A stretch of DNA of 64,000 nt. Origin: an uncultured archaeon. Its GTDB lineage: Archaea; Asgardarchaeota; Lokiarchaeia; Sigyniarchaeales; SOKP01. Location: NCBI GenBank assembly GCA_964486045.1, contig CAZALK010000008.1, positions 128,001 through 192,000 of the forward strand, given 5' to 3'. Of the stretch, positions 5,765 through 27,327 are shown one piece after another. A program made the position numbers and the translations under genes. Position 1 is the first letter of the stretch. Each line of letters begins with the position of its first letter. Below the pieces are notes generated by a model. The model did no database searches, had not been told where the DNA came from, and saw nothing but the letters and a program-made list of their open reading frames with translations.

Positions 5765-5903
5765 TGATTAAACTCACTCCTTACACTTTAATTATTTAAA
5801 AACAATATTATAACTAATTCCAACTCTAGTTTTGAAAATTATCTTTTCTTGAATTTCCAGTCCACTTTTTTTTCAGGATAATATTGACAATTTATAAGAA
5901 AAT

Positions 5904-7115: not shown

Positions 7116-7501
7116 TTTTCATCAATACGCTTTAGCTTTAATACCAGATTGCTCAATTTTCAATAATAATTTGAATAAACCAAATTATATAATCTTTCTC
7201 ACAGTTAAAGAGGTAAGAAATTGAGGAGAAGAAGTTTAAAGTATATGTGTTTGTGGGTGAAGGTTGGTATTGAAGATAGTTAAAAAAAAAATTGGTTATC
7301 TCAAAATGTGTTCTCAAATATGCTCCATTAAAAAGGAAATATTTTTTTTAATAATTGAATATACGTGTTTTGGTCGACTTACGTTATTATTTAGGAAGAA
7401 AAGATATCGAACACATCAACTTATATTAGAAATTTAATTAAACAGTATAATTAACGAAAATTTTTTCATTTGACAATTTAACAGATAATCAATAACTATA
7501 C

Positions 7502-8377
7502 TTGGTGAGTGTAATAGAATTAGGAATAAGTTCAATGGGGCACATTTTCGATTGTATTCGCTCCAATGAATTTAATAATTTAATAGATATATTATTAGAA
7601 TCTATAAAAGCTAGTCTTGAATATGCAGAACAAAAAAATCTAAGTGTTTGTGAGTTAATGCTAGAACCACCAGAAATCTTTTCGAGTGAAAATCAACAGA
7701 AAATTATTGATATCTGCAACTCGTATTCAATTAAAAAGCAAATTCATGCCCCTTTCATAGATCTTAAAATGTGTTCCTATAATCAACGTATATCTAAAGC
7801 GAGTATGGAATCTTGTGTTGAAGCAGCAAAAATTTGTGACCAGATCGATTCAGAAATATTAGTTATACACCCCGGTACCGTATTTGGGGGAAAATTTTTT
7901 AGAATGATAAGTAATGAAAAGTTAATCGAGAGGGTGAAGGATCTATTAAATGTAGTTACTCAAATGTACCCAAATCTTAAAATTTGCATTGAAAACATGC
8001 CTAAAAGAACAAATTATTTTATATCTGTGGAAGAGATTGAAATATTCTTGAATGATTTAAATAGAGAGAATATATTTTTAATATGGGATACGAGCCATTC
8101 GTGGACTTGCGACGTAAATCTTGAAGACTTTTGGGAAAAATTCCACAAGATCATAAAAAATATTCATCTTGCAGACAATGACAATAAAGAGAGCGATATG
8201 CATCCCACCTTAGGGTCCGGTAAGGTAAATTTTCCTGAGATTTTTGATTTAATTAAGAAATATAATTACAAGAATTCACTAATTGTAGAAATTAGTTCTG
8301 CTCAAGACCTTTCAAATAGTCTTGAATACGTAAAAAAACTCTTACAGATAAAAAAAATTAAAATAAAGCTTAATTAA
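7502..8377 (+). CDS. Sugar phosphate isomerase/epimerase family (xylose isomerase-like TIM barrel)
   Basis: HAPF, VIHPG, IENM, DTSH, HLADN..D.H..LG.G and terminal E metal-binding pattern. Confidence 0.85.
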   Translation: MVSVIELGISSMGHIFDCIRSNEFNNLIDILLESIKASLEYAEQKNLSVCELMLEPPEIFSSENQQKIIDICNSYSIKKQIHAPFIDLKMCSYNQRISKASMESCVEAAKICDQIDSEILVIHPGTVFGGKFFRMISNEKLIERVKDLLNVVTQMYPNLKICIENMPKRTNYFISVEEIEIFLNDLNRENIFLIWDTSHSWTCDVNLEDFWEKFHKIIKNIHLADNDNKESDMHPTLGSGKVNFPEIFDLIKKYNYKNSLIVEISSAQDLSNSLEYVKKLLQIKKIKIKLN

Positions 8378-8420
8378 TCGTTGAGTTAATTTTTAATAAT
8401 ATTAGAATATGTGAATTATT

Positions 8421-9341
8421 ATGATGAAGAGTCATTTCCACCAAAAAAGCAAATTGAAGAAAAGTAAATTAATAATTATTTTTATTCTGAGTGTAATACT
8501 TCTTTCCCCTTCAGTAAACTCCTCCTCAGTCGCACCAGCTCCGGCTGTTGAAGTAAAAGCGGGCGAAAGTTATAATTGGTTTTTAAAGGTAAATATTAGT
8601 AATTATATTGAGCTTTTAACTAATACAGGAGGACCTATATCAACTGAATTATTAGCACTAAATTTAATGGGGGATAGTGATGGACTTATTACGTTAACAG
8701 CAAAATTTGAAATACTATATATTCCAGATAATTTTGTTATTGATTCATTCTTTGATATAACCTTCACGATAGTTGAAGGAGAGTTTACTCTTGTTCCAGA
8801 TTACAATATATCCACAGCACCTATTTTTTACCCTCTGAATTTTTCAATATCTCCTACTTTGTCTAGGACCAATTTTTCAATTTTAAAGGGGGATACTCCT
8901 AGCTACTTTTCCGCACATAATGGGAATAATTATCCAAAGGGAACTTATCATGGGTTCTACCTGATCGTTCCAACTGATTTAGATTGGACTGTGACAGCAG
9001 CACAATTACAAACAGAAATAGGATCTTATTTTCGGAATAATTTTAATATTACGGATGCCAGTGTATCACCACAAAGTAATGGATTAAGGGTAGTTTCTCC
9101 CGCAGATACAACTATCCTTGCTACTGAACTTAATTTAAACTATAACACAAATGGAGTTCTCGAAACCGCATCTGGAAAATATGGAGGGACGACACTGTTT
9201 TCTTTAGAACTAACGAGTGACGAAACTATTGCTTTTGAGCTTCCGTTTCTCTTAAGCATCTTTGCTATCGCTACTGTTATACTACTAATTAGAAATAGGA
9301 AAAATCATAAATTGAGGACTGATAAAATAACATCAACTTAG
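8421..9341 (+). CDS. Secreted/surface protein with N-terminal signal and C-terminal TM anchor plus basic tail
   Basis: Basic then hydrophobic N-terminus; many NxS/T sequons; C-terminus ...IAFELPFLLSIFAIATVILLIRNRK. Confidence 0.7.
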   Translation: MMKSHFHQKSKLKKSKLIIIFILSVILLSPSVNSSSVAPAPAVEVKAGESYNWFLKVNISNYIELLTNTGGPISTELLALNLMGDSDGLITLTAKFEILYIPDNFVIDSFFDITFTIVEGEFTLVPDYNISTAPIFYPLNFSISPTLSRTNFSILKGDTPSYFSAHNGNNYPKGTYHGFYLIVPTDLDWTVTAAQLQTEIGSYFRNNFNITDASVSPQSNGLRVVSPADTTILATELNLNYNTNGVLETASGKYGGTTLFSLELTSDETIAFELPFLLSIFAIATVILLIRNRKNHKLRTDKITST

Positions 9342-9566
9342 CTTTTTTCATATAACTCTTAATTTGTGATCTTAATTTGTTGTTGTTAGATCGATATATC
9401 GGGTATTTTGAAATCGAAAACATTGGGGATTTCTTAAAGAATAAACCTCCTGCAGAAATGATAGAAACGATAGAACAAGCTTCGAAGGTCTGTTCGAATA
9501 CAAAAGAATGGATCGGTGAACAAATTGCCACAAATACCAATTAATGATCTTAGGTTGTAAAGAATT

Positions 9567-10190
9567 ATGCCAGCAAAAATAGATTTTAAAAAAAAGTTTA
9601 AAGAACTGTATCAACCAAGTGCAAAGGAAGTAGTTATAGTTAACGTTCCAGAAATGCAATTTCTCATGATTGATGGAATGGGCTCACCTGGTGATTCCCA
9701 AGAATACCAAGACGCACTCGCTACACTCTATCCTGTAGCATTTAAAACTAAATTCTTAAGTAAAGCAAAAGGTAAAGACTATGTTGTTCCACCCTCAGAG
9801 GGTTTATGGTGGGCTGATGACATGAATGACTATACGGGGGGAAATCGCGATAAATGGAAATGGACAATGATGATAATGCAGCCTGATTGGATTACTCAAA
9901 AAATGATTGATGAAGTAATCACGATTACAAATGACAAAAAACCTGAGCTTTCAGAATTATTACCTAAACTCAGACTAGAGAAATATACTGAAGGTAAGGC
10001 CGCTCAAATAATGCATATAGGCCCATATTCGGAGGAAGGTTCCACAGTTCAAAAAATTCATGAGTTCATCCAGAAGGAAGATGGAATATTCGACGGTCAA
10101 AATAATAAACACCATGAAATATATCTTAGTGATCCGAGAAAGGGTAATCCAGCGACCATGAAAACTGTTATAAGACAACCTTTTATCTAA
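9567..10190 (+). CDS. GyrI-like small-molecule-binding domain protein
   Basis: VPPSEGLWW, WKWTMMIMQPDW, HIGPYSEE and HHEIYLSDPR motifs. Confidence 0.88.
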   Translation: MPAKIDFKKKFKELYQPSAKEVVIVNVPEMQFLMIDGMGSPGDSQEYQDALATLYPVAFKTKFLSKAKGKDYVVPPSEGLWWADDMNDYTGGNRDKWKWTMMIMQPDWITQKMIDEVITITNDKKPELSELLPKLRLEKYTEGKAAQIMHIGPYSEEGSTVQKIHEFIQKEDGIFDGQNNKHHEIYLSDPRKGNPATMKTVIRQPFI

Positions 10191-13840: not shown

Positions 13841-14146
13841 TCACGAAAGATTTTGAAAAGAAATTAAATCCATCTGAATTGATCTATGGTTAATATTTGA
13901 GACTAGGTCTTCAAGATCAGGGAACTCAAAAGGGAAGATGTTTTCAAAAGCTCTTTTTAACAATTCAACGTACTTCTTCTTGTCATATTTGTGCTTTTTA
14001 TCATCAAATAAGTCTGAAAGGATAACCTTTTTTTCAGGAAAACTTGGATCCGCATCGGCATTAAGAATAATATATCTTACGTTTTTACCTGCTGATGCAA
14101 TAACACCAGAGCGTTCTAACTGTCTTGCGGCAACTGCCTGGTAACT
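13841..14146 (-). pseudogene. Start-less 3' fragment of a PolB2 polymerase gene (101 codons + TGA)
   Basis: Translates as SYQAVAARQLERSGVIASAGKNVRYIILNADADPSFPEKKV...QMDLISFQNLS*. By manual alignment 83 of 101 aa are identical to the C-terminus of 24904-27327. There is an in-frame TAA at 14165-14167 upstream and no start codon. Confidence 0.9.
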
Positions 14147-14711: not shown

Positions 14712-16769
14712 CTATTTTATTGAAGCCATGAATTTCAAAATAGTATCCATAATAGGAAGAGAGTTACAAATTATTCCAATTCTTTTAGCCCGAAAATCAA
14801 AGGCTTTCCTTCCAATAGGTGCGAGGTATGGATAATTGGAGATAATTATTACTTCATCTCCAGCCAGTATTGCATTAAATTTAACATTTTTACTCAATTC
14901 AAGGAAATTACAATTTTCACATTCTTTTGTTATCATTTCTAATTTTCTTATCCCCTCTTCCCATTGAATTGAGCTTTTTATAAGTTCCGTCTTATTTAAT
15001 AATATAGAGAAAGAAGGGATCTCTTCTAGGTGTGATTGAAATATTGGACCAATTCTTTTCTGACTTAGCTTTTCAGTAATTAATTGGAATGGCGCTTGTA
15101 TCTCTCTCATAGCATCTATTAGTATATCTTCATGTTCATAATCATATAATAATGATATACATTCTATATTCACCAAAGTGTTAATTTTTTCTTTGATTTC
15201 ATATAGTAAACCATTTGTACTCTCTATATTCTCGTTTAATATAAAAAATTCAAGGTCCTCAATTTTTTTTTCAAAAAAATTGATAATATTAATTCTGTAA
15301 TCGGACAAATTATTACAATAGACTTGAGTGGATTTTGCTAAGTATTTGTTTAAAACTTTTTTTCTATCAAATGAATCAGGTAAAAAATCGATAACAAATT
15401 GCAAAAGGCTTAAAGGTGTCTTTCCGCCCTCTAAATAAATGTTTGGAGTAATTAAACCCTCCTCGTTGTAATTATAACCAAGGAATGATAAACAATTGTA
15501 AAAGACTTTGTTGTTATCAATGATTAAAAAATTTGCATCAATCATATTATCCGATATAGTAAAAAATACTCTATTTTTATCTTTTCTTTCTAGTCCAGAA
15601 GATACTCCCAGTCTAAACTCCTTGATCTTTTCACGCTGTTCGCTAGGTGAGATCTCTTCTACACCCCCCCAAATAAACGTAATAGGTACTTCATTTTGAC
15701 TAGATTCATATATAATACTCTGAAGAAATGATAAATTGTTTAAGTTTAAATTATCAGAACAGATAACAATAAAATCTTGTGCATTTTTAACGTGTTCAAT
15801 AATAAGATTTTTTACTTCTAAATTTTGATATTTAAATACTATTTTATTTACACTTTCAATTCGTTCTTTTAAAATTTTAAAATCTTTTTTTATTCTATCA
15901 AACCTATCCTCTAACAATATTTGAAGGCTCAAATTCTCTTCAAGATTATTAAAAGAGTTAATTTCTTCCTGTAAAAAGTTAAGGTTGAATAGAATTTGGG
16001 TTATAAATTTTTTATTTGACAAAATAATCGGTGTTTCAAGAGTTAAATCTTCTTCTATTTCTTCTGATTCCATAAGTTTTGATTCAAAAGCTTTCTGCCA
16101 ATATTTTTGGACGACTCTGGGGAATATATCAAAATCCAGATTAAATAAAATACCTTCTTCCTTTTTAATTGGAATATATAATTTATCTCGATGTAAGGGA
16201 TATAAGAAATTAATTTTTTCGACATTTTCTAAATCTCTAACTCTTGATTTAACACATTGAGTATATTTTAGTAAAGAATAACTATATATATGTTGAAATG
16301 TCTCTGAAGGTGAAGATTTTAAATCAATGAAATTCGTTTTATCAGGATTAGGTGTCTTTAAATAATCATTAACATCATTTTGAATAAAGAGTTCCCCCCC
16401 AATTTTTTCTTGAAGAATTATTACGGGATATTTATAGACAGTAGTATCAACATCCAAAAATTCATCTAGTTTATCTTTTTCAACATATTCAATAATCTTT
16501 TCGCTAAGTGTTACTAATCCACTATTTAAATCAATATGGATTAATCCTGAATATATTAATGGTGTTAATATATAATTCATAATATGTTTTCCAACATTAA
16601 AGGCTTTAACTATGTTTATTAGTGAATTATCTTTACTTATTAATTTTAAAACTAATTTCTCAAGATGAGAAAGCATCTTACTTTTACGAATCACAATTTC
16701 ACATTTTTCCATTTGAATTGGAACAGTAATAACATCATCTTTTTTAACCTCCAGATTTTCCTCAGACAT
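14712..16769 (-). CDS. MkoB-like protein: N-terminal wHTH-like region plus two degenerate PLD-fold domains
   Basis: PLD-fold patterns (VKNAQDFIVICS...ITFIWG...IDANFLIIDNNKVFY; EHEDILIDAM...KFNAILAGDEVIIISNY) lack the HxK residues. Start lies 1 nt after the helicase stop codon. Confidence 0.65.
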   Translation of the reverse strand: MSEENLEVKKDDVITVPIQMEKCEIVIRKSKMLSHLEKLVLKLISKDNSLINIVKAFNVGKHIMNYILTPLIYSGLIHIDLNSGLVTLSEKIIEYVEKDKLDEFLDVDTTVYKYPVIILQEKIGGELFIQNDVNDYLKTPNPDKTNFIDLKSSPSETFQHIYSYSLLKYTQCVKSRVRDLENVEKINFLYPLHRDKLYIPIKKEEGILFNLDFDIFPRVVQKYWQKAFESKLMESEEIEEDLTLETPIILSNKKFITQILFNLNFLQEEINSFNNLEENLSLQILLEDRFDRIKKDFKILKERIESVNKIVFKYQNLEVKNLIIEHVKNAQDFIVICSDNLNLNNLSFLQSIIYESSQNEVPITFIWGGVEEISPSEQREKIKEFRLGVSSGLERKDKNRVFFTISDNMIDANFLIIDNNKVFYNCLSFLGYNYNEEGLITPNIYLEGGKTPLSLLQFVIDFLPDSFDRKKVLNKYLAKSTQVYCNNLSDYRINIINFFEKKIEDLEFFILNENIESTNGLLYEIKEKINTLVNIECISLLYDYEHEDILIDAMREIQAPFQLITEKLSQKRIGPIFQSHLEEIPSFSILLNKTELIKSSIQWEEGIRKLEMITKECENCNFLELSKNVKFNAILAGDEVIIISNYPYLAPIGRKAFDFRAKRIGIICNSLPIMDTILKFMASIK

Positions 16770-16770
16770 T

Positions 16771-19700
16771 TTAATATGGAACCTCGTCGTGTGAGATTAT
16801 TTTTCCTTCTTTTTGAAAAAAGACTGCCACCTTACTAAATTTTTCCATAATTGGATTTCTACGATGATTTAAACACATTTTTAAATCACCTACAATTATT
16901 TCTACTTTTCTCGCTCTTGAGAGCATTACATTTAGTCTTTGAGGATCAGGAATAAAACCCCAAGCTGATCTGATTCCTTCTTTATTGTTACTTCGAACAA
17001 GTGATATAATCACTAAATCTGCCTCTTGACCCTGAAAACTATCAACAGTATAACAAGAATTTTTAATATTTATCCCCCCCAAGTTTGGAAGGTTGTTTGG
17101 TAAGTGAGTCTTTAAAACATTTACTTGCTCATTATAAGGGCTTAAAATAGCCAAGGAGAATTGGATATACTTCTTATTAACTCTAATTTTTTTTAATATT
17201 CTATTAATTAATTTAACTTCAGAAATGTTGTAAAAATCTGTACCAGCCCGTTTTTCTCCATAGATTCTTTCATTTTTTGTATTGATCCAAATTAATTGTT
17301 CATTTGACATCATAGTTGGTTCTAAAATTAAATCATCTATTTCATGAATTTCTTGTCTAAAAGCTCTGTCATAGAAAATTGTTGAAATCATTTTACTAAT
17401 TTTTGAAGGAAGTCTATGTTGGCCTATGAGTGTATTACAAGATCTCCTTTCATCAGCAGAATCATATGAAGGGCTTATTTTTTTAAATCGTTCGAACATA
17501 GATTGGAAGATTTTTACTTCTCTAATTGTTAACTTTCTAAATTCTAAGAAATCTCTTTCATTAAAGGTTATTTCTTCTTTAGATTCCTCTTCTATTTCAT
17601 CTAATTCTTCATTGATTAGTTCAATAATATCATTTAGTTTAAATGGAGGGAGTTGGTTTTGATCTCCAATTAGGACCCACTTATTCCCTAGCTGCAAAGG
17701 TCGGAATAATTCAGAAGGATATGTTTTAGCAGCCTCCTCGATTATTACTAAATCAAAATTAGGTCTTGATTCCAGTTTACTCAAATCATTAGACGTACTA
17801 GTACAGAAAACTAAGTTTGAACTCTCTCTAATACTATCTGTCCATTCACGACTTGGTGCTTTACCTTCGTATTTTATTATGTTTTCAATTTCGGCTAAAA
17901 TGTCATCATATTTTTTAAGATTAGGATTCCATTTTTCAATATTCTCTAACATTTTAATAGCCATTTGTTTAGGAAAATGCTTAAAGGCTATTGATCCTGG
18001 CGGATAATTACGTTCTCTAAATGGATTAATTAGTCGAACAATTTTAGGTTTTGGATTAATGTTTAATTCCTTGCACATGTCATAAGTCTTCTCTAGAAGG
18101 TCATCTAAAGCCGCATGCTCTTTACTTGAGACTAGAATCCTTTTATAAGGGTCTCTTTCAAGAGTTAATCTAATTAATTCCTTTGCAGACCATGTTTTTC
18201 CCGTTCCTGGAGGTCCTTGAAGAAGGAATATTGGAAAAGTGTAGAAAATAAAATTTACGATATCACTCTTATTGTCTTTCAAAAAATATTGATGTATCGC
18301 AGCTGGATTTAAAATCGCATCAATTAAATAATCTTTATCTTCTAAATTTTGAATAGTCATAAATTTCCTTTTTAATAGATGCAATGTTGGTTTTAAATCC
18401 CAAAAACGCAAATAACCATTTAAAGAAGGACTATCATTTTTTCTAACTTCTTCCCATTTTACAACAATATTGAAATCATCAGGTTCATCAATAATTTCAA
18501 TAAATTTCCATTTTCTTCGTTCTTTAAACCTTTGTTTTAAATCTGGTGAATCTGTTAGTTCTACAGTTTGAGTTTGAGAATTTCTTAAGACTTGTATGAA
18601 CCGGGTCCTTTCAGCTTTGTTAAAAATGTTTATACTAATTTGTCGTTTACTTTTTTTTGGACTCTCTTTATCGAATGAATCGTTTATAAGTTCATATTCG
18701 AATATGTATCTTTTTTCAATATTTTGCTCTACTTTAGTAATAAGTTTTAATGCTTCTAACCATCTTTTCTTATCTAGTTCATAATCTGATGGTTCTTCAT
18801 CAATAGTTCTTATTTGTGTTAAAGCATTTGCAAATATCCGATCCCAAGTAGAATATGATTTTTCTTTAAGATCTTGCCAATATAACTCATTTACTTTACA
18901 GACACAAATATCATTTTTCAATCCAAAACTTCTCTCTTCATTTTTATTTAATAAACTTACTATTGCAATTTTTCTATTATTACGACCCCTCTGAAATTTA
19001 TACTTTCCATTTTTACCAATTGCCCATAAGGGCCAATCTCTATTATTCGTTAAATAAAAAGATAATTCTGAAAATTCATTTTTTAAAAAAGCATCTGGAT
19101 ATTCTCGAATACCTTGAATATTTACATCAACCTTCCGAGCAATCCAGTTGAGAAAATGACTATCTCGGTCTATATTGAAGTATATTGGTAATTTAGGTGT
19201 TGTAATTGTGAGATATTTAAGTTCGTTCACAAAATCTCTAATCTTTTCTACAAATTCATCAATGCTTTCAAATCTGTCTTCGTGATTCAATTCGGTTGCT
19301 TTTAAAATTATTTCTTTTTCTTGTTGTAATCCCTCTTGAAAATGTATATTATCACGGATTTCATTGTATAATCTAGCTCTATCTGAAAACTCAGTGTCTT
19401 CATATTCAATCATATCTAAATCAAAAATTAGAAAAGCCATTACTAATCCTAAAGAAAAAATGTCTGATTTAAAAGTCTCCATCTCTAAGCACTCAGGTGC
19501 TCTAAAAAAATGCAAGTTATTTTGAATAATATTTTTTGTAATCTCATCAGAGATTAGATTAGATATTGAATATAAATAAATACTCCAGTTAAAATCACCT
19601 AATCTAAAGATATGATCTTCACCTTCTCGATAAGCTTCCCTGTTAAAATAAACCGTATCAAGAGAGATGTTTCTATGTAGGAGTCCTGCGTTATGAATCG

Positions 19701-20160
19701 CAAGTAATCCCTCTGATAATTTTAAAATTCCTTCCCAAATTTTTTTTTTTGAAAGATTTGAATTCTTTAATTGATCAAATAGTTCGATATCTTCATTCTC
19801 CTTTTTAGATAAGAGAATCTCCCTTAAACTTGAACCTCCTGCCTCAGTTATTAAAATAAAACAATTCTCCTCCTTATCGTACTCACCATCAATTAATTTT
19901 AGTAATGTATTTCCTCTAGAAATATTAATTGCTCTTTGATTTAAAGAAATTTCATAATGCCATAGATATTGAGCTAACTCTTGAATACGAGGGTCCTCTT
20001 TAACGTTAATTTTTTTTAATATAACTCTCTGTTGTAGACCACGATCTTCGGCGATATATTGATTTATTTCAATCTTATCACTAAAAGGGATCGCAATATT
20101 GCCTGTAATTTCTTCAATAATTCTATATCTTGTTTTCCATGAATCATAAATTGAGGTCAT
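16771..20160 (-). CDS. MkoA-like Ser/Thr kinase-like domain fused to a UPF1/DNA2-type SF1 helicase
   Basis: Kinase motifs: VILKK, LLHRNIS, LGDFN, FRAPE, SDIFSLG. Helicase motifs: QGPPGTGKT, IIEEAAK, LIGDQNQLPP, QHRLP, SPYNEQ, TVDSFQGQE, RLNVMLSRAR. Confidence 0.88.
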   Translation of the reverse strand: MTSIYDSWKTRYRIIEEITGNIAIPFSDKIEINQYIAEDRGLQQRVILKKINVKEDPRIQELAQYLWHYEISLNQRAINISRGNTLLKLIDGEYDKEENCFILITEAGGSSLREILLSKKENEDIELFDQLKNSNLSKKKIWEGILKLSEGLLAIHNAGLLHRNISLDTVYFNREAYREGEDHIFRLGDFNWSIYLYSISNLISDEITKNIIQNNLHFFRAPECLEMETFKSDIFSLGLVMAFLIFDLDMIEYEDTEFSDRARLYNEIRDNIHFQEGLQQEKEIILKATELNHEDRFESIDEFVEKIRDFVNELKYLTITTPKLPIYFNIDRDSHFLNWIARKVDVNIQGIREYPDAFLKNEFSELSFYLTNNRDWPLWAIGKNGKYKFQRGRNNRKIAIVSLLNKNEERSFGLKNDICVCKVNELYWQDLKEKSYSTWDRIFANALTQIRTIDEEPSDYELDKKRWLEALKLITKVEQNIEKRYIFEYELINDSFDKESPKKSKRQISINIFNKAERTRFIQVLRNSQTQTVELTDSPDLKQRFKERRKWKFIEIIDEPDDFNIVVKWEEVRKNDSPSLNGYLRFWDLKPTLHLLKRKFMTIQNLEDKDYLIDAILNPAAIHQYFLKDNKSDIVNFIFYTFPIFLLQGPPGTGKTWSAKELIRLTLERDPYKRILVSSKEHAALDDLLEKTYDMCKELNINPKPKIVRLINPFRERNYPPGSIAFKHFPKQMAIKMLENIEKWNPNLKKYDDILAEIENIIKYEGKAPSREWTDSIRESSNLVFCTSTSNDLSKLESRPNFDLVIIEEAAKTYPSELFRPLQLGNKWVLIGDQNQLPPFKLNDIIELINEELDEIEEESKEEITFNERDFLEFRKLTIREVKIFQSMFERFKKISPSYDSADERRSCNTLIGQHRLPSKISKMISTIFYDRAFRQEIHEIDDLILEPTMMSNEQLIWINTKNERIYGEKRAGTDFYNISEVKLINRILKKIRVNKKYIQFSLAILSPYNEQVNVLKTHLPNNLPNLGGINIKNSCYTVDSFQGQEADLVIISLVRSNNKEGIRSAWGFIPDPQRLNVMLSRARKVEIIVGDLKMCLNHRRNPIMEKFSKVAVFFQKEGKIISHDEVPY

Positions 20161-20451: not shown

Positions 20452-23331
20452 TTGACATTGATTAACGATTTATTAAAATTCTTCTATACTGAACCAAGCG
20501 ATTTAGACTATTCTCCTGGTAATGAGATGACGACAGCATTTATTTATGACGAAATTCGAGAAATTGGAGATAACATTTTTACATCTAATATAGATCCTAA
20601 ATTTTATAAAGAGACCGCTGAAATATTCTTAAAAGACATTGATACTCTATTACAAGATACTCCGGATGGGAAAAGATTAGTATGGGAAGAATCATTAGTG
20701 GCACATCTACCCGCTTTGGACGAGAATGGTGATCAAATTATTTTAAGACCTTCAATGCTACCTTCTAAAGATACCGGCTTCTTTATCTGGGATGAAGGAA
20801 AAAAGAAATCCTCTGACGAATTAACAGATCAATGGGGAAACGAAGGCGGATGGGGTTATTTTCAGGGAAAAGGCTCCCCATTTATTTTTGTTCACGATGA
20901 CGATGGCAATAATGGAATTATGCCCGTAAGTTTAATGGGTGATACCATGCCTGAAGGAATAAATCTAGGATATAAGAGTTCAGGTACAGGAGATGTGATA
21001 AAAGGAGTGTATCTAAGCGACGAAGGAGGAGGACTTTTACTATCACAAATTGGGCTCATATCTGAAACGTTCTATGCTAAGGGTAAGGAATGGTTCAAAG
21101 ATCCATTAGCCATCCCAAATCACATTAACCCGAATTATGAAATAGAAATAAATGGTAAGGTTGTCATGGTTCCTAGACTAATTTATTACAGATCTTCTAC
21201 GAGACAGACTGGTAACCATATCCATGGATTCCTTCAGAAGGTAGTATCCACTATGGTACCTCGGAACACGTACAAACCGCTCATAAAGGCTGAAGTTTCT
21301 CTAACAAGTAGACTGAAAAGCATCTTAAAAAGTAGCGAGTTTTCTTATCGGTTTGAATTCGATAGGGATTTCTCATCTAAGCAATTATTCGAAATACTTA
21401 GTTTACTTCCTACTGTTGCTCAGAAAGGCTCTTCAGGTGCGATTGATTCAACTGCTTTAAATTTACTTAAATATTTTAATGGTCGATTTATAGGTAAAAA
21501 AACATTGACGAATTTTATTCCAGGTCCAGACAAAATTGAAATTAATGACATGATTAGGGCGTTAGAATTCACTGCCTTAGAATTAAAGCGATTAGCATGG
21601 AAAAATAGTGATAATACTTTCATCGGGGCAAATCAATATCTTAAAGAATGGTTAATGTTAATCTATAATAAGATTATGACATACGATAAAACTCAACCCA
21701 ATGCTGACACTAGCATAATACGAGAGCAAGAAAAACTAACAGACCTCAGAGATAACCATGCCACAACTTATTCTGAACTAGTTACCTCAATTGAGCCAGA
21801 AAAATGTACTCCAAAGGAGTGGAATATGGCCATTAGTATTTTTGAGTCAGCATCAAAGTTATTTGGTCATGGGACAGTCAGATTAATGCTTTCAAATATG
21901 GTGAATTTCAATAAAGATAAGAGCATAAAAATATATAATACTCCTCCAAAAGGTGAACTCGCAGCAATTCATAATCATATAGGTTTTGCTTCTATGGGCA
22001 ATTTGCCAATTTCTGATTATACAACCATCGGTAACTTTTACGAACATATGGTTGGAATATTTCTTCTAGATTCTCATGTTATCATACCGAGGACTGATAT
22101 TATAATTAATTCAAAAGAAAACTCATACATATTTCCTTTCGGACCAATAACATTTAATAATCCGACCGAAATTGTCGAAGCCAATACCATAGGTTCATTT
22201 TCTTGGTCTTTAGCTAAAAAGATTTCTGGCGAATTCAAAATATATATGAATAGCAAAACGAAGATAGATAGTTTTATATCCTCACAAACAAATCTATATA
22301 ACGCCTTTTCTGATTTATTAGATGAACAAATAATAGATCAGAGACTCTATAACAACTTCAACACCCCTGAAAAGACTTGGAAGGAAAGGAAAGGAATGAA
22401 TATCTGGCTTTCTAGAAGAACCAAACAAGTCGCAAGGACAGAGCTCTTTTCTATTCAATCCGGTGGCTTAAGAAACAATATTGATGAATTTAGGGCATTA
22501 TTTGATTATTTAACTGACATACCATTTAATGTCCTTAAGGCGGGAGCTACTACTACATTCTCTCTATCACTAACTCAGCCATTTTTAGAAAATATAGACT
22601 ATTTGAGTTGGCCAAAGGACGCCATTGCCAAACTTATCGAGGATTCTTATCAACGTTTCAAAGATGAAAATATTGAAAACTTTTTTGACCAAACTAGAAA
22701 GATAATTTCAGAATTTGGAACCGACGGTAAGAAAGTGCTAATTCAACCTATATTTTCTACAAACGATCCAGATCTAGGATATCAACACCTAATATCTGCT
22801 GAAAATCTCGCTAAAAAGAGGTGGTTACCAAGAGAAAAAACGGTATTTGAAGTTGACCTTACCAAACCCGAGGAAGCACATTATGTTTTAGAACATATAG
22901 CTCATCTTATGGCTACATTTAATATCGCTTTTGTATTTAGAGAGTGGATTGACCTAGATACTGACCCCCGTTATAAAGATATTTATTTGAGGACAGAAAA
23001 AATGAAGAAATATTTTGAAGATAATCAAGAAGTAATTACAGCGGTTGATTTTGAGGGTTATTTACGCATTGACGAAATCTATTCAGGGTCTTCTTCTGGT
23101 GAACAAGTCTTACTTAATGGCTATACCACAAATTCAGAGGGAAAAACATTTTTTGATGCTGAAGTTTTTAAGACATACGATGAATGGGACAAAGTATGGA
23201 AACATAAAATGGGTTTCTTTTCGATTTCATTTGGTAAATTTAATTTTAACGCATTAATGTCTGGCACTTCTGATCAAGCGAATACCCTAAGAGAGATATT
23301 AGATCCAACAGGAACAAGATTTAGAAATTAG
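20452..23331 (+). CDS. Hypothetical protein, 959 aa (no recognisable motif)
   Basis: Long uninterrupted ORF. The TTG start is uncertain. Its stop overlaps the stop of the convergent LRR gene. Confidence 0.8.
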   Translation: MTLINDLLKFFYTEPSDLDYSPGNEMTTAFIYDEIREIGDNIFTSNIDPKFYKETAEIFLKDIDTLLQDTPDGKRLVWEESLVAHLPALDENGDQIILRPSMLPSKDTGFFIWDEGKKKSSDELTDQWGNEGGWGYFQGKGSPFIFVHDDDGNNGIMPVSLMGDTMPEGINLGYKSSGTGDVIKGVYLSDEGGGLLLSQIGLISETFYAKGKEWFKDPLAIPNHINPNYEIEINGKVVMVPRLIYYRSSTRQTGNHIHGFLQKVVSTMVPRNTYKPLIKAEVSLTSRLKSILKSSEFSYRFEFDRDFSSKQLFEILSLLPTVAQKGSSGAIDSTALNLLKYFNGRFIGKKTLTNFIPGPDKIEINDMIRALEFTALELKRLAWKNSDNTFIGANQYLKEWLMLIYNKIMTYDKTQPNADTSIIREQEKLTDLRDNHATTYSELVTSIEPEKCTPKEWNMAISIFESASKLFGHGTVRLMLSNMVNFNKDKSIKIYNTPPKGELAAIHNHIGFASMGNLPISDYTTIGNFYEHMVGIFLLDSHVIIPRTDIIINSKENSYIFPFGPITFNNPTEIVEANTIGSFSWSLAKKISGEFKIYMNSKTKIDSFISSQTNLYNAFSDLLDEQIIDQRLYNNFNTPEKTWKERKGMNIWLSRRTKQVARTELFSIQSGGLRNNIDEFRALFDYLTDIPFNVLKAGATTTFSLSLTQPFLENIDYLSWPKDAIAKLIEDSYQRFKDENIENFFDQTRKIISEFGTDGKKVLIQPIFSTNDPDLGYQHLISAENLAKKRWLPREKTVFEVDLTKPEEAHYVLEHIAHLMATFNIAFVFREWIDLDTDPRYKDIYLRTEKMKKYFEDNQEVITAVDFEGYLRIDEIYSGSSSGEQVLLNGYTTNSEGKTFFDAEVFKTYDEWDKVWKHKMGFFSISFGKFNFNALMSGTSDQANTLREILDPTGTRFRN

Positions 23332-24599
23332 TGGATTTTTATCCCTTTTTTTTTTAATTTTTGAATAATGAGATTACCACTTTCTGTAAGGTTGTTTTCA
23401 TCAATAAATAAAGTTTTTAGATATTTTAGATTTAGCAAGTTTTTTGGTAAATCTCTAATTTTATTTCCCTTTAAATTAAGAAGTTCGAGATTTTCAAGTT
23501 TACCTATAGATTCAGTTATTTTTTTTATCCGATTCTTTTGTAGGTGCAATGTCTTTAAATTTCTTAACAAAAAGACGTTAACGGGTATTTGAGTTAAAAG
23601 ATTATTACCTAAATACAGATATTCAAGTCTTTTCAATTCGATAATTGAATCTGGAATTTCTTCAACCATATTACCCAGAGAAAATAATTTAAGCCTATTT
23701 AGAGCACCTATTCTTTTTGGGACAAATTTTAGACAAGCACTTCGGATTCTTAACTTTTCAATCTTGTATAGGTCAAATATTGAGTTTGGAAATTCCTCCA
23801 AAATACTACTTTCCACTGATAATTCTTGTAAATTCTTTAATTTTACAAATGTTTTCGGTATTGATGGTATTTTATCTCCAAAATAACGTAAAACTTGTAA
23901 ATTTTTAAAGTTAGAGACTGAACTCGGGAGGGGTTTTGCGGGTTTATTATACCAATATAACAGTAGTTTAATTACGGACTTATCTTTTACCATAAACTGT
24001 TGACTCTCATCCAAGCCGTCACCAGTGTCAAATTCCTCCCAATTTACCTTTTGGTTTATAGGCTCATCTGTAAACTTTTCAAGCTCAAGCAACGATTCAG
24101 CTTCCACAGGATTTAAAATAGACATAAAATATTGATCACGGTCTAAAAAATCGACATAATGTTCGCTGACTAAAAATTTAATAACTGAATCATTCCCTGA
24201 AGCGAGACGTGTTGCGATTTCTCCTTTAAAGACTTGTTTTGCGATTGCATCACCGGCTTTAGTGAGAGCGTGAAGTAGTGGAAATGCCAAATTTCGATGG
24301 AGCAGTCGTGTGTCATAATTGTTCTCATACCATACTTGTAAATTTGAACAGTGTGCCCAAAACTCAGTTCTAGGATCTATATAGACATCTTCTCGCTCAC
24401 CAGGGTGTTCTAGGGTATTATCAAGTTTTTCAGTGATTTCATCAAGAGACTTAAGTTCTTCAAGCGATTTAACTTTGTTAATTGGGATGTTTAAAAGTAA
24501 GAATTTGCATTGAATGAATCTCTTACCAGCAACATAAATAATTGTTCGAACACCCTCGACTTTTAGCGTTAAATATCTATTAATTCTAAATTCGCTCAT
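23328..24599 (-). CDS. Leucine-rich repeat protein with Lokiarchaeia-type N-terminal domain
   Basis: N-terminal EFRINRYLTLK...FIQCKFLLLNIP...EFWAHCSNLQVWYENNYDTRLLHRNLAFPLL domain. C-terminal LxxLxLxxNxLxxIP repeats. Start is reassigned to the ATG at 24599 (MSEF). Confidence 0.88.
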   Translation of the reverse strand: MSEFRINRYLTLKVEGVRTIIYVAGKRFIQCKFLLLNIPINKVKSLEELKSLDEITEKLDNTLEHPGEREDVYIDPRTEFWAHCSNLQVWYENNYDTRLLHRNLAFPLLHALTKAGDAIAKQVFKGEIATRLASGNDSVIKFLVSEHYVDFLDRDQYFMSILNPVEAESLLELEKFTDEPINQKVNWEEFDTGDGLDESQQFMVKDKSVIKLLLYWYNKPAKPLPSSVSNFKNLQVLRYFGDKIPSIPKTFVKLKNLQELSVESSILEEFPNSIFDLYKIEKLRIRSACLKFVPKRIGALNRLKLFSLGNMVEEIPDSIIELKRLEYLYLGNNLLTQIPVNVFLLRNLKTLHLQKNRIKKITESIGKLENLELLNLKGNKIRDLPKNLLNLKYLKTLFIDENNLTESGNLIIQKLKKKGIKIH

Positions 24600-24903
24600 G
24601 ATCTCCTCAATATAAAGAAAAGTTGTCTTTATATAATTAATCGAAATCAAGACATAAAAAAATTATGTGTAAGTATATTTTTTGATTTTATAAATACCAA
24701 AAGAGCCAATATTAAATTTTTCTTTCTTATTGAAAATGTTATAAAAAAGCCATTAAAAGAGTTCAGACTAAAGGAAAAATACAAATTAACCAAAACTTGA
24801 CTAATCATTAAAATTATAGGAGAGATAATCTCAGAAATTTTTTTTATTTTTTTTAAATTTAACTTAAAATTCACTACCCAATGCACTTAATCTTTACATA
24901 ACT

Positions 24904-27327
24904 TTAAGTTTTTTTACGGGCGGTTTGAAATGACAGCAAATCCATTTGAGTTGATTTTTGGTTGAAGTTTGCTACTACTTCTTCAAGATCGGGAAAGCTA
25001 AATGGAAAAATGCTCTCAAAAGCCCTTTTTAATAGTTCTGTGTACTTCTTTTTATCATACTGGTGCTTCTTTGGATCATACAAATCCGAAAGGATCACTT
25101 TTTTTTCGGGAAAACTGGGGTCTGCTTCAGCGTTAAGGATAATATACCTTACATTCTTTCCCGCAGAAGCAATTACACCCGAGCGTTCTAGCTGTCTAGC
25201 CGCTACTGCTTGGTAAGAGTTCACCTTGTATTGTGAAGGTCGTCTTGAAATCTTTTGTTTTATCGTAAGCTCATCCCCCGATACATTACCACTTGTGATT
25301 TTGTTAATATATTCATAGAGCTTCTTTTTTGCTTCGGGAATTTTTTTCATAAACTCTTCGACGGAAACGACTCCTTGGAATACATCAAAAAAAGCATATT
25401 GGGCATCTTTGACGATCTTTGGTATATCTCTACGTCTCACCTCAACGCCTCTGACCTTTAGTTCTCCATTAGTTTTGATACCCCAATAATGAGTGAGGGC
25501 TGGAACGTTACGTTCGGCTCGAGAGGGCAGAAAAGCAATGACATTATAGCATCCATCCCAGCTCATCGGGACTCTAGTATGATCCGTTATTTCTTCAGCT
25601 ATCTTCTTAGTTACTTTTTCAAACTCCTCGGGAGTTCTTCCTTTCGTGTCTTTCACATAGATTGAATCAACAATTCCGTGAATAATCTTGCACCCGTGAC
25701 TTCCAGCGATTTCAGCCGCACGCATTAAAAATTCTCGGGCAAATGCACACACTGTTTGGTGTGCCTCAATTTTACCAAAACGCGCATTTTTGAAGCCTAA
25801 ATAACCAAAACTTACTACAAGCACCCATTTTAAAGCGATATCTGTGAACTTGTATCGAAGATCATCGTGTGTTTTGTTATATGCTTTGCACTCTAAACGT
25901 TTTCTAAGGGGTAGACTAATCGATTTTGAGATAATTCCTTCTCTTTTGGAACAGATATGAAAACCTCCTCCTCCGGGTACTCTAATTCCCGTTCCATCAT
26001 CTTTGCAACATTTGCAGTTAATTGTTTCAGATGAAACGTTAAGATTGGCCATAATGGAAGGATACATTGATGAAAAATCGAGTTCTACAACTTGATCAAA
26101 GACTCCGATTATTGGCTCGAATATATGGCCTCCCCGGTCATTAACGATCAGATCCATGCCATTTCTAAATCCTTCAGGACTTTTCTTGAAAGGTGGAATA
26201 AGATGACCTAGCTTGTAGGCATTATAATATTGTATCGACTGAAGCGCACCTCCAATTGTTATTCTACATAGTCTCTGCATCGCTACTCGAGAAATCCTCG
26301 CAACTTCAATAATTCCTGGTATATTTCCTTCACTAAAGTGCAAACTCCCATAAGAAGATGTATCCATATGAAAACGACCAGTCAAATACACTTGCGTTTT
26401 AGAGCGACGCATTATTATCCCATATGACATATAATGATCTGAGTTTCCTGAAAGGTTAAAAATACAGTTTTTTAGCGGTGTTTTATTCCGAGAAAGGTAG
26501 AGATCCTTTGATACTCGATTCACTGATGCCCGAGCAACTAAGTATGGAAATACGAATTCGTCTCCTCCACTAGTTAATATAATATCAGGATCTAATTTCT
26601 CGATTACTTTACTAATCATTTTAATGGTTTCTGCTTCATCAGCTTCATCGATAAGAATCGTTCTTTTTCTCTGACCGTCTGCCCTTGGCACATTATTTTC
26701 ATCATTTTCAACAATGCTCACCTCTGCGTATACCAAACAGTCGTTAAAATATGATCTCATCCCATGTTGTTCAACTTTTATATCCAGCCATACAGATTTT
26801 AACGGAGGTAATTCATAAAATAGTTCTTCGTTGTCATCTTTTAAATCTAAGGATACCAGCTGCATTGAGTGACCATCAGCATTTTTCTTCTTTTTAGGTT
26901 TGACCTTGAAACTGCAAAAAGACATAGGAAAGAGATCATTTACGTAGAAATACATCTGAGCGATTGGAAGATCGGTGTTATATAACGTAAACAGCCCAAT
27001 CCCATCAATAGCTTTAATAGTTTTCTTAAATACTGAAGGCTTCACCACAGAGACTCCAAAGATTTTTGTCTTCTTATGGTCTTCTAGCTTCACATATTTT
27101 TCGCAGATTCGTACACCTTTAACGTCGTGATGGGATAAAAGAATAGTCTCTAGCCTCCTAAAATCGTTACCCATGTGTTTCTTTGGCACAGCAAAAAATT
27201 CGGGGCAGAAATCATGAAATATTTTTACAATCTTTTGCTCTTTTGCAGTTTTCACCCAAAGAATGACTCCATTGCCATGAGTGGAGACATCAAAAAGCCA
27301 ACCGTCAAATTGTTCTTGAAAGCTCAA
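24904..27327 (-). CDS. polB2: Family B DNA polymerase, PolB2 (Dpo2-like) group
   Basis: LDFSSMYPSIM, KWVLVVSFGYLG, HGIVDS (in place of YGDTDS) and VRGVEVRR. Exonuclease motifs are degenerate (LDIK, GGDEFVF). C-terminal PIP-like QMDLLSF. Confidence 0.9.
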   Translation of the reverse strand: MSFQEQFDGWLFDVSTHGNGVILWVKTAKEQKIVKIFHDFCPEFFAVPKKHMGNDFRRLETILLSHHDVKGVRICEKYVKLEDHKKTKIFGVSVVKPSVFKKTIKAIDGIGLFTLYNTDLPIAQMYFYVNDLFPMSFCSFKVKPKKKKNADGHSMQLVSLDLKDDNEELFYELPPLKSVWLDIKVEQHGMRSYFNDCLVYAEVSIVENDENNVPRADGQRKRTILIDEADEAETIKMISKVIEKLDPDIILTSGGDEFVFPYLVARASVNRVSKDLYLSRNKTPLKNCIFNLSGNSDHYMSYGIIMRRSKTQVYLTGRFHMDTSSYGSLHFSEGNIPGIIEVARISRVAMQRLCRITIGGALQSIQYYNAYKLGHLIPPFKKSPEGFRNGMDLIVNDRGGHIFEPIIGVFDQVVELDFSSMYPSIMANLNVSSETINCKCCKDDGTGIRVPGGGGFHICSKREGIISKSISLPLRKRLECKAYNKTHDDLRYKFTDIALKWVLVVSFGYLGFKNARFGKIEAHQTVCAFAREFLMRAAEIAGSHGCKIIHGIVDSIYVKDTKGRTPEEFEKVTKKIAEEITDHTRVPMSWDGCYNVIAFLPSRAERNVPALTHYWGIKTNGELKVRGVEVRRRDIPKIVKDAQYAFFDVFQGVVSVEEFMKKIPEAKKKLYEYINKITSGNVSGDELTIKQKISRRPSQYKVNSYQAVAARQLERSGVIASAGKNVRYIILNAEADPSFPEKKVILSDLYDPKKHQYDKKKYTELLKRAFESIFPFSFPDLEEVVANFNQKSTQMDLLSFQTARKKT

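What the first reader, a model, noticed from the sequence alone, without database searches (positions are those of the whole stretch)
14712..20160. Mokosh type I-like system whose kinase and both PLD active sites look degenerate
Seen: a tightly coupled pair (1 nt apart) of a kinase-fold/SF1 helicase and a protein with two PLD folds. The helicase motifs look intact (GPPGTGKT, GDxxQLPP, TVDSFQG, RLNVxLSRA; Walker B EEAA). The kinase has HRN instead of HRD and DFN instead of DFG. The PLD HxKxxxxD motifs read DANFLIID and KFNAILAGD. Established: Mokosh type I is MkoA (kinase + RNA helicase) plus MkoB (PLD), paralleling the piRNA factors MOV10L1/Armitage and PLD6/Zucchini. Inference: this is an Asgard variant in which the PLD folds are scaffold or sensor domains and the effector activity lies elsewhere, either in the helicase itself or in the neighbouring orphan.
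Basis: partly seen in the sequence, partly recalled or inferred. Interest (0 to 1): 0.75.

Follow-up and report, generated by a model that had tools for sequence, protein, structure and literature searches.

The report
Asgard Mokosh pair with dead nuclease
This is a two-gene Mokosh type I anti-virus module in a Loki-type Asgard archaeon whose partner protein keeps the shape of the PLD nuclease but has lost every catalytic residue, which raises the testable question of how such a system defends without cutting nucleic acid.

Summary
Window 16771-20160(-) encodes MkoA (PADLOC 1.5e-166, full length). Window 14712-16769(-) encodes MkoB (5.5e-21). The two genes are 1 nt apart.

The "degenerate kinase" is not special. 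The experimentally validated E. coli ETEC H10407 MkoA reads HRH/GFE, and other MkoA read HRS, HRK or HRN. The Glu-Glu Walker B is also shared with the E. coli protein.

The unusual part is MkoB. A confident model (pLDDT 86.7) has a bilobal PLD fold (Z 25.5 to Streptomyces PLD), but the His, Lys, Asn and Glu of both sites are replaced.

- The loss defines one well-supported clade of 16 sequences, going down to about 26-34% identity.
- That clade sits inside MkoB proteins with intact HKD motifs, including one from the same genus.
- The genes are under purifying selection (dN/dS 0.29-0.34 for MkoB, 0.21 for MkoA).
- Sequence constraint has moved to the N-terminal wHTH half of MkoB.

So this is not a decaying copy. 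MkoB is most likely a non-catalytic binding or adaptor subunit, and the MkoA helicase is the only recognisable enzyme.

The 959-aa neighbour is not linked to the pair. The scan has already noted dead-PLD Mokosh pairs on other DNA (e1-4116334, e1-1091867, e1-4091352). This is a new variant of a known kind.

The parts
16771..20160 (-). mkoA, 1129 aa: kinase-like domain, Upf1-type accessory region and SF1 helicase core
   Evidence: PADLOC PDLC03920 1.5e-166 over the full length. Pfam AAA_11, AAA_12 and Pkinase.
19201..20136 (-). MkoA residues about 9-320: protein-kinase fold that is probably a nucleotide-binding pseudokinase (K49, E70, H162-R163-N164, D189-F190-N191)
   Evidence: Pfam Pkinase 33.2 bits against a cut-off of 31.7. 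HRN and DF[NS]W are near-universal among the 23 homologues (21 keep the Asp). The beta3 Lys and alphaC Glu align with those of a canonical kinase.
18241..19200 (-). MkoA residues 321-640: an alpha/beta domain of unknown fold, then a helical stalk and a beta-barrel like domain 1B of Sen1/SETX
   Evidence: Model pLDDT 82.1. Sen1 Z 8.0 over 91 aligned residues and SETX Z 7.7. Foldseek gave only weak helicase N-terminal hits.
16774..18240 (-). MkoA residues 641-1129: SF1 Upf1-like helicase core with motifs I, Ia, II, III, V and VI intact
   Evidence: Motifs align column for column with the E. coli ETEC H10407 MkoA, including the EE-x-G-K form of motif II.
14712..16769 (-). mkoB, 685 aa, translationally coupled to mkoA (1-nt spacer)
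   Evidence: PADLOC PDLC03922 5.5e-21. Junction sequence. The pair is conserved in 4 other Asgard loci.
15855..16769 (-). MkoB residues 1-305: wHTH (about 32-103), a beta-rich domain and long helices. This is the most conserved part in this clade.
   Evidence: MepR Z 10.1 for residues 32-103. 43 of 69 low-entropy columns lie in residues 1-235.
15360..15854 (-). MkoB PLD lobe 1 (residues 306-470)
   Evidence: Zucchini Z 11.6 and 10.2 for this lobe.
15516..15539 (-). Former HKD site 1: D411-A-N413-F-L-I-I-D418 (His to Asp, Lys to Asn, Asp kept)
   Evidence: Aligned to H-[SA]-K-x4-D of relatives. N413 and D418 are each conserved in 93% of the clade.
14715..15164 (-). MkoB PLD lobe 2 (residues 536-685)
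   Evidence: Nuc Z 13.0, NucT Z 13.3, FAM83B DUF1669 Z 12.8.
14856..14882 (-). Former HKD site 2: K630-F-N632-A-I-L-A-G-D638 (the His position is variable, Lys to Asn, Asp lost)
   Evidence: Aligned to H-[AGS]-K-x4-D of relatives. N632 is conserved in 93% and N645 in 86% of the clade.
13852..14144 (-). Displaced copy of the 3' end of the family-B DNA polymerase gene. It marks the left edge of a roughly 10.8-kb island that holds the pair.
   Evidence: 77% nucleotide identity over 293 bp to 24924-25216, and 84% amino-acid identity over 99 residues to PolB 704-802.
20452..23331 (+). 959-aa orphan ORF, divergent neighbour, not part of the module
   Evidence: No Pfam, PADLOC or NCBIfam hit. Absent next to the pair elsewhere. 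Its own distribution is independent of Mokosh.

Best explanation
The two genes are an evolutionary member of the Mokosh type I MkoA/MkoB module, carried on a roughly 10.8-kb island in a Loki-type Asgard genome. They belong to a long-lived sub-lineage in which MkoB has become a PLD pseudoenzyme.

Shown:
- MkoB keeps a wHTH and a bilobal PLD fold, but every residue type of the HKD mechanism is replaced in both lobes.
- The loss happened once, at the base of a clade that has since diverged to about 26-34% identity.
- Both genes stay coupled and under purifying selection.
- Constraint in MkoB has moved from the PLD lobes to the N-terminal half.
- MkoA is an ordinary MkoA, with intact SF1 helicase motifs and the family's usual kinase-like domain lacking the catalytic Asp.

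Inferred:
- MkoB acts as a non-catalytic binding or adaptor subunit for nucleic acid, a phosphate-bearing ligand or MkoA.
- The kinase-like domain binds nucleotide as a switch, because Lys49, Glu70 and Asp189 are kept.
- Interference is carried out by ATP-driven translocation or unwinding by the Upf1-like helicase on viral RNA or replication intermediates. This could work by remodelling or blocking them, or by handing them to a host nuclease, rather than by PLD cleavage.
For: - Family assignment: PADLOC MkoA 1.5e-166 and MkoB 5.5e-21.
- Fold: MkoB model pLDDT 86.7, pTM 0.84. Foldseek to the PLD superfamily at E 4e-12. VIA Z 25.5 over 329 residues to Streptomyces PLD and Z 24.5 to vaccinia F13, with each lobe matching Nuc or Zucchini at Z 10-13.
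- Site loss: H-x-K and GS-x-N, and the Glu that pairs with the His, are replaced in both lobes across the clade. Sixteen more distant relatives, including E. coli and Rhodopseudomonas MkoB, keep both sites.
- Single origin: the HKD-less rows form one clade (SH-aLRT 100, stem length 1.28), sister to an Asgard MkoB with two HKD motifs.
- Selection: dN/dS is 0.29-0.34 for MkoB, with both lobes at 0.26-0.53, and 0.21 for MkoA.
- Constraint shift: 43 of 69 low-entropy columns lie in the N-terminal half of this clade, against 6 of 28 in HKD-bearing MkoB.
- Helicase: motifs are identical in type to the validated E. coli MkoA.
- Coupling: the pair is conserved and tightly coupled in 4 other Asgard loci in varied, partly defence-like contexts such as HerA-like, AAA_15/21 and Mrr neighbours.
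- No back-up: the 99%-complete genome holds no second MkoA or MkoB, and no nuclease fold was found in the middle region of MkoA.
- Precedent: non-catalytic PLD folds appear among the structural matches, namely FAM83B DUF1669 and the TrmB effector domain.
Against: - In E. coli, mutation of the PLD active site abolished Mokosh defence (Millman et al., 10.1101/2022.05.11.491447). A nuclease-free mode therefore has no experimental precedent in this family.
- Conserved polar residues remain in the old pockets (N413, D418, N632, N645).
- MkoA residues 320-430 have no assigned fold.
- dN/dS of about 0.3 shows constraint but is fairly relaxed.
- Anti-viral activity has not been tested for any member of this clade.
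Confidence: 0.55

Rival explanations
1. MkoB is still a hydrolase. The reshaped pocket (Asp/Asn-x-Asn, Asp418, Asn632, Asn645), perhaps with a metal ion or with residues contributed by MkoA, cuts nucleic acid by a chemistry other than the phosphohistidine mechanism.
For: N413, D418, N632 and N645 are conserved in 86-93% of the clade, against about 14% of all positions at that level. Both lobes are under purifying selection.
Against: The former His position is not conserved. It reads D, N or S at site 1 and K, R, N, L and others at site 2, so no replacement nucleophile is fixed. The GS-x-N Asn and the His-orienting Glu are also gone. Constraint has moved away from the lobes.
Confidence: 0.15
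2. The module no longer works in defence. It has either been taken over for a host role, for example a wHTH regulator paired with an RNA helicase, or it is slowly decaying.
For: All catalytic centres other than the helicase ATPase are lost. dN/dS of about 0.3-0.5 in places is relaxed. One close relative sits beside a housekeeping HisRS gene.
Against: Distribution is patchy, 6 of 400 genomes of the phylum, which is typical of mobile defence genes. The pair lies on an inserted island and beside HerA-like, AAA_15/21 and Mrr genes in other genomes. The reading frames are intact and coupled across a clade diverged to about 26-34% identity.
Confidence: 0.12
3. The kinase-like domain of this clade keeps weak or atypical phosphotransfer activity, as reported for HRN-type pseudokinases such as HER3 (from my own knowledge), and phosphorylation is the effector step.
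For: The beta3 Lys, the alphaC Glu and the DFG Asp are kept. Among the pseudokinase-type MkoA examined, the Asp is kept only in this HKD-less clade and in P0039 (partner unknown), and is lost in the MkoA paired with intact HKD (GFT, GFE). A B. thuringiensis MkoA with a canonical kinase also pairs with an MkoB lacking HKD.
Against: The catalytic Asp and the catalytic-loop Asn are both replaced (HRNISLDT) in all 23 homologues. The Pfam kinase score is marginal, 33.2 bits against 31.7. Two members have even lost the DFG Asp (GNF, GGF).
Confidence: 0.1
4. The neighbouring 959-aa orphan, or the LRR protein, is the missing effector of a three-gene system.
For: It is transcribed divergently from the pair, lies within the same island and has no recognisable domain.
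Against: It is absent from all four other Asgard MkoAB loci. Its homologues occur in 15 of 400 genomes, often as parts of giant ORFs. They overlap the Mokosh carriers only in G000 and in G161, where the match is on a different contig. Similarity between the window and a 95%-identical metagenome contig stops 60 bp beyond mkoB, so the pair moves on its own.
Confidence: 0.03

Closest known systems
Mokosh type I of E. coli ETEC H10407 (MkoA 1215 aa + MkoB 602 aa; Millman et al. 2022, 10.1101/2022.05.11.491447)
   Same: The gene order and coupling are the same, and both proteins match the same PADLOC profiles. MkoA has a kinase-like domain lacking the catalytic Asp (HRH/GFE there, HRN/DFN here) and the same helicase motifs, including EE-x-G-K. 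MkoB has the same N-terminal region followed by two PLD lobes.
   Different: The E. coli MkoB has two intact H-A-K-x4-D motifs (positions 368 and 554), and the PLD active site was needed for defence. Here both sites are gone.
Mokosh type I of a genome of the same Asgard genus (G228, locus L020) and of a same-class genome (G124)
   Same: Same phylum and same two-gene layout. The G228 MkoA is also HRN-type.
   Different: Their MkoB proteins keep both HKD motifs (HSKFLVID and HAKFLTMD). They are only about 21% identical to the window's MkoB and lie outside the HKD-less clade. The G228 MkoA has lost the DFG Asp (GFT).
Non-catalytic PLD-fold proteins: FAM83 DUF1669, TrmB effector-binding domain, vaccinia F13 (partly degenerate)
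   Same: They share the PLD fold without a working HKD pair. Structural matches are Z 12.8 (FAM83B), Z 11.1 and 10.6 (TrmB) and Z 24.5 (F13). TrmB also combines an N-terminal wHTH with the fold.
   Different: There is no detectable sequence relationship. Their ligands (kinases, sugars, membranes) say nothing direct about MkoB. Their functions are recalled from my own knowledge and were not tested here.
Upf1-like helicases and the MOV10L1-PLD6/Zucchini pairing of the piRNA pathway (Cury et al., 10.1101/2022.12.12.520048)
   Same: An SF1 Upf1-like helicase is paired with a PLD-fold protein. The middle region of MkoA resembles the 1B barrel of Sen1/SETX.
   Different: PLD6 is an active HKD nuclease that works as a homodimer of single lobes. 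Here the partner is a single chain with two dead lobes and a wHTH.
B. thuringiensis pFR260 MkoA/MkoB-like pair
   Same: It matches the PADLOC MkoA and MkoB profiles, and its MkoB has no HKD motif.
   Different: Its MkoA has a canonical kinase (HRDLKPSN, DFG). The C-terminal half of its MkoB is not a recognisable second PLD lobe and resembles parts of other Bacillus plasmid proteins. It is an independent, very divergent lineage.

Membership tests
Mokosh type I (MkoA + MkoB) | MkoA: COG1112/Upf1-like SF1 helicase with an N-terminal Ser/Thr-kinase-like domain | tested here: met
   PDLC03920 1.5e-166 covering profile positions 22-1092 of 1112. Pfam AAA_11, AAA_12 and Pkinase. Helicase motifs match the validated E. 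coli MkoA.
Mokosh type I (MkoA + MkoB) | Adjacent, co-oriented MkoB homologue | tested here: met
   PDLC03922 5.5e-21. 1-nt spacer. The protein nests inside the MkoB tree.
Mokosh type I (MkoA + MkoB) | MkoB is a PLD-family nuclease with an H-x-K-x4-D active site, which was required for defence in E. coli | tested here: not met
   The fold is present, but His and Lys are replaced in both lobes here and in the whole clade.
Mokosh type I (MkoA + MkoB) | Protects against viruses in a way that depends on the helicase ATP site | not testable with these tools
   This needs expression and infection assays. The Walker A motif GPPGTGKT is intact.
PLD superfamily (HKD enzymes) | Bilobal or dimeric PLD fold | tested here: met
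   2ze4 Z 25.5 over 329 residues and Foldseek E 4e-12, for a model with pLDDT 86.7.
PLD superfamily (HKD enzymes) | Catalytic His and Lys in each lobe, plus the GS-x-N Asn and the His-orienting Glu | tested here: not met
   Site 1 reads D-x-N with Ser in place of the Asn and Pro in place of the Glu. Site 2 reads x-x-N with a variable residue in place of the Asn and Lys/Arg in place of the Glu. Only Asp418 survives.
Eukaryotic-type protein kinases (active) | Catalytic-loop H-R-D-x4-N and the DFG Asp, with the beta3 Lys and alphaC Glu | tested here: not met
   The loop reads HRNISLDT, so the Asp and the Asn are replaced. K49, E70 and D189 are kept. The Pfam Pkinase score is just above its cut-off.
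SF1 Upf1-like helicases | Motifs I, Ia, II, III, V and VI, and 1B/1C-type accessory elements | tested here: met
   Motif alignment. TIGR00376 IGHMBP2 family 3.1e-45, below that model's cut-off. Sen1/SETX 1B barrel at Z 8.0, a marginal match.

The most novel reading that the evidence does not exclude
A lineage of Asgard Mokosh defends, or surveys RNA, without any nuclease of its own. In this reading an Upf1-like helicase is gated by an ATP-binding pseudokinase and guided by a wHTH/pseudo-PLD adaptor. It would either neutralise viral RNA or replication intermediates by translocation alone, or hand them to the host's decay machinery. That would be a prokaryotic counterpart of Upf1-type surveillance in the closest archaeal relatives of eukaryotes.
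Probability: 0.2. Interest if true: 0.8.

Novelty: new variant of a known kind. Interest (0 to 1): 0.5.

Why it matters
Mokosh is one of the commoner anti-phage systems and its mechanism is still unknown. The only functional data say that the helicase ATP site and the PLD active site are both needed. A conserved, diversified lineage that has discarded the PLD chemistry but kept the fold, the coupling and the helicase is therefore useful as a natural separation-of-function experiment.

If this lineage defends, the PLD step is dispensable or replaceable, and attention shifts to the helicase and to the N-terminal half of MkoB. If it does not defend, it shows a defence module being turned to another use.

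The same Asgard genus also carries an MkoB with intact HKD motifs, which gives a ready-made comparison pair. The work also corrects a likely misreading: the "degenerate kinase" is the normal state of MkoA, including the validated E. coli system.

Tried and rejected
- **Third gene.** All-against-all BLAST of five Asgard loci found only MkoA and MkoB shared. The similarly sized genes of about 800 aa nearby are unrelated: PolB, a HerA-like protein and an AAA_15/21 protein.
- **The 959-aa orphan as effector.** It has no Pfam, PADLOC, NCBIfam or Atlas hit, and its distribution is independent of Mokosh. Rejected.
- **A hidden nuclease in the middle region of MkoA.** The model of residues 320-645 matched only the Sen1/SETX 1B barrel, at Z 8. 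Foldseek found nothing at E <= 0.001. Residues 320-430 remain unassigned, so this is inconclusive rather than excluded.
- **A second Mokosh or canonical MkoB elsewhere in the genome acting in trans.** None was found.
- **Sequence search of MkoB against the PDB.** Nothing was found. Pfam and NCBIfam also found nothing for MkoB.
- **Searches for further relatives.** The search for related loci with the diverse alignment A2 failed because it has no conserved stretch. With A1 it found only one further genome contig. tblastn of MkoB against plasmids gave no match.
- **Context look-up.** Equal contig lengths link MkoA and MkoB clusters.
- **A counting error, corrected.** The regex count of HKD motifs in the tree script mislabelled P0004, P0041 and P0043 as having one motif. 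Those matches lie outside the catalytic columns.
- **Promoter and terminator scan.** Uninformative for an AT-rich archaeon: 37 sites found against 34.6 expected.
Full report
**1. What is there**

The window holds two minus-strand ORFs, 16771-20160 (1129 aa) and 14712-16769 (685 aa). They are joined as TAA-a-ATG, a 1-nt spacer.

- The large protein matches the PADLOC MkoA profile PDLC03920 over its whole length (E 1.5e-166, profile positions 22-1092 of 1112).
- The small protein matches MkoB profile PDLC03922 (E 5.5e-21, positions 8-511 of 610).
- Pfam sees AAA_11, AAA_12 and a marginal Pkinase in MkoA, and nothing in MkoB.

The closest homologues are named as coming from Promethearchaeota (Asgard) MAGs and the Loki's Castle sediment metagenome. 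The genome is 5.18 Mb, about 31% G+C and 99% complete.

**2. The kinase-like domain is ordinary for MkoA**

- All 23 homologues found with the N-terminal region keep HRN, and nearly all keep G-D-F-[NS]-W, down to 27% identity.
- I fetched the experimentally validated type I system of E. coli ETEC H10407. Its MkoA reads LLHRHLDEN and TGFEWS.
- Rhodopseudomonas reads HRS/GFE, Acinetobacter HRK/GFE and Rhizobium etli HRN/GFE. The MkoA of another genome of the window's own genus reads HRN/GFT.
- Canonical HRD...N/DFG kinases occur in other branches: B. thuringiensis pFR260, Pseudanabaena and Tolypothrix.
- The beta3 Lys and the alphaC Glu are kept everywhere.
- Among the pseudokinase-type MkoA, the DFG Asp is kept only in the window's clade and in P0039 (partner unknown).

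So the domain is best read as a nucleotide-binding pseudokinase. Losing the catalytic Asp does not set this locus apart from a system that demonstrably defends.

The helicase motifs I, Ia, II, III, V and VI align column for column with the E. coli protein, including the Glu-Glu form of motif II.

A model of MkoA residues 320-645 (pLDDT 82) shows a helical stalk and a barrel resembling domain 1B of Sen1/SETX (Z 8.0 over 91 residues). No nuclease fold was seen. Its first ~110 residues (MkoA 320-430) have no assigned fold.

**3. MkoB has the PLD fold without the PLD chemistry**

An AlphaFold2 model built on 32 sequences is confident (pLDDT 86.7, pTM 0.84).

- Residues about 305-685 form a bilobal PLD fold.
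  - Foldseek finds PLD, phosphatidylserine synthase and vaccinia F13 at E 4e-12 to 5e-11.
  - An independent aligner gives Z 25.5 over 329 residues to Streptomyces PLD and Z 24.5 to F13.
  - Each lobe alone matches Nuc, NucT or Zucchini at Z 10-13.
- Residues 32-103 are a winged helix (MepR Z 10.1).

I aligned this protein with more distant relatives from an exhaustive profile search (53 representatives in 1.8 billion proteins) and with the E. coli and Rhodopseudomonas MkoB.

- Canonical MkoB proteins have both motifs: E. coli at 368 and 554, Rhodopseudomonas at 336 and 515.
- In the window's clade, site 1 reads [D/N/S]-x-N-F-x3-D and site 2 reads x-x-N.
- The GS-x-N Asn and the Glu that orients the His are also replaced in both lobes. 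Of the canonical residues only Asp418 survives.

**4. The loss is old, happened once and is maintained**

- In a maximum-likelihood tree the HKD-less proteins form one clade of 16 rows (SH-aLRT 100, stem length 1.28). Its sister is an Asgard MkoB with two HKD motifs, and the whole group nests among HKD-bearing sequences. This is the quick tree, because the careful search did not finish. Three "HKD1" labels in that output are regex artefacts.
- Within the clade, identity to the window falls to about 26-34%, yet N413, D418 and N632 (each 93%) and N645 (86%) are conserved. Only about 14% of positions reach that level.
- Against two metagenome contigs that are 91% and 87% identical in protein, dN/dS is 0.29 and 0.34 for MkoB. 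The individual lobes run from 0.26 to 0.53. MkoA gives 0.21.
- Constraint has shifted. In this clade 43 of 69 low-entropy columns lie in residues 1-235. In HKD-bearing MkoB 22 of 28 lie in the PLD lobes. The two groups differ in diversity, so this comparison is indicative only.
A PLD fold is predicted. No intact HKD is seen. No close homologue has HKD, since intact sites appear only at about 15-20% identity.

**5. Context**

- The pair is patchy, found in 6 of 400 genomes of the phylum, and is the only Mokosh in this genome.
- In four other Asgard loci only MkoA and MkoB are shared.
- Neighbours vary: a HerA-like ATPase, an AAA_15/AAA_21 ATPase, an Mrr-type nuclease, and in one close relative a histidyl-tRNA synthetase.
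- Similarity to that 95%-identical contig stops 60 bp past mkoB.
- In the window the pair lies on a roughly 10.8-kb segment together with the 959-aa ORF and an LRR protein. The segment is bracketed by a displaced copy of the 3' end of the family-B polymerase gene: 13852-14144 against 24924-25216, at 77% nucleotide and 84% amino-acid identity. Earlier first-stage notes of this scan pointed to this repeat, and I confirmed it.
- The 959-aa ORF has no recognisable domain.
- The 959-aa ORF has homologues in 15 of 400 genomes, all of one family and often as parts of giant ORFs. These genomes overlap the Mokosh carriers only in G000 and in G161, where the match is on a different contig. It is not a component of the module.

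**6. How it most likely works**

Shown: a coupled and conserved pair, made of an intact Upf1-like SF1 helicase with a pseudokinase and a wHTH protein whose PLD lobes are catalytically void but still selected.

Inferred (confidence about 0.55): MkoB serves as a binding or adaptor subunit, the kinase-like domain is a nucleotide-dependent switch, and interference rests on the helicase motor, either directly or by recruiting host nucleases.

The rivals are:
- residual non-canonical catalysis in the reshaped pocket, or a composite site with MkoA (0.15);
- loss of the defence role, or decay (0.12);
- atypical kinase activity as the effector (0.10);
- a neighbouring gene as the effector (0.03).

The main counter-argument is that the PLD active site was essential in the E. 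coli systems. Also, no published mechanism exists for type I Mokosh. One recent study could not purify it.

**7. Comparison and novelty**

By descent this is an MkoA/MkoB pair, and annotation tools will call it Mokosh type I. By function it fails one defining feature, the PLD nuclease site. I therefore file it as a variant of the kind and not as a plain member.

- Mokosh in Asgard archaea has been catalogued.
- I found no paper that mentions loss of HKD in MkoB or a pseudokinase in MkoA.
- This scan has already reported dead-PLD Mokosh pairs in other genomes. I checked that idea independently only for the B. thuringiensis plasmid. There MkoB lacks HKD but pairs with a canonical kinase and has a different C-terminal half.
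- Combining a pseudokinase with two dead PLD lobes, in a clade that sits beside HKD-intact relatives of the same genus, is the new element.

Interest is moderate at 0.5. The finding gives a clean and testable question about a common defence system, but it is not a new kind of system.

Noticed in passing
window 13852-14144 and 24924-25216: A diverged direct repeat of the 3' end of the family-B DNA polymerase gene (77% nucleotide identity, 84% amino-acid identity over 99 residues) brackets a roughly 10.8-kb segment. The segment carries mkoB, mkoA, the 959-aa ORF and an LRR gene. It looks like an island inserted at the end of polB, and no integrase was recognised inside it.
   Followed up: partly
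window 20452-23331; loci L030-L038: The 959-aa orphan belongs to a family restricted to one Asgard family (15 of 400 genomes). Its matching segments often lie inside giant open frames of about 1,900 to 14,500 aa. Two matches contain an in-frame TGA.
   Followed up: partly
window 23328-24650: A 440-aa protein with C-terminal leucine-rich repeats and an unassigned N-terminal half. Its coding end overlaps the end of the 959-aa ORF. Database matches come only through the LRRs.
   Followed up: no
L002 (B. thuringiensis pFR260) 4953-9887: An MkoA with a fully canonical kinase (HRDLKPSN, DFG) is paired with an MkoB-like protein that has no HKD motif. The C-terminal half of that protein resembles parts of 'AAA domain-containing' proteins on other Bacillus plasmids. 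This is a separate kind of Mokosh variant.
   Followed up: partly
L023 (Pseudanabaena) and L024 (Tolypothrix): Cyanobacterial plasmid Mokosh-like pairs have a canonical kinase in MkoA and a shorter MkoB (481-509 aa) with a single HKD motif. Each lies next to a large DEAD/DEAH or helicase-related gene.
   Followed up: no
MkoA residue 189 (window about 19594-19596) and homologues: Among the pseudokinase-type MkoA examined, the DFG Asp is kept only in the clade whose MkoB lost HKD and in P0039 (partner unknown). The MkoA paired with intact HKD read GFE or GFT. This rests on one evolutionary event, so it is only a lead.
   Followed up: partly
window 36034-41319: A 1761-aa ORF coincides with a stretch of very strong G-over-C and A-over-T skew (GC skew up to 0.35, AT skew up to 0.34). 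It was not examined.
   Followed up: no
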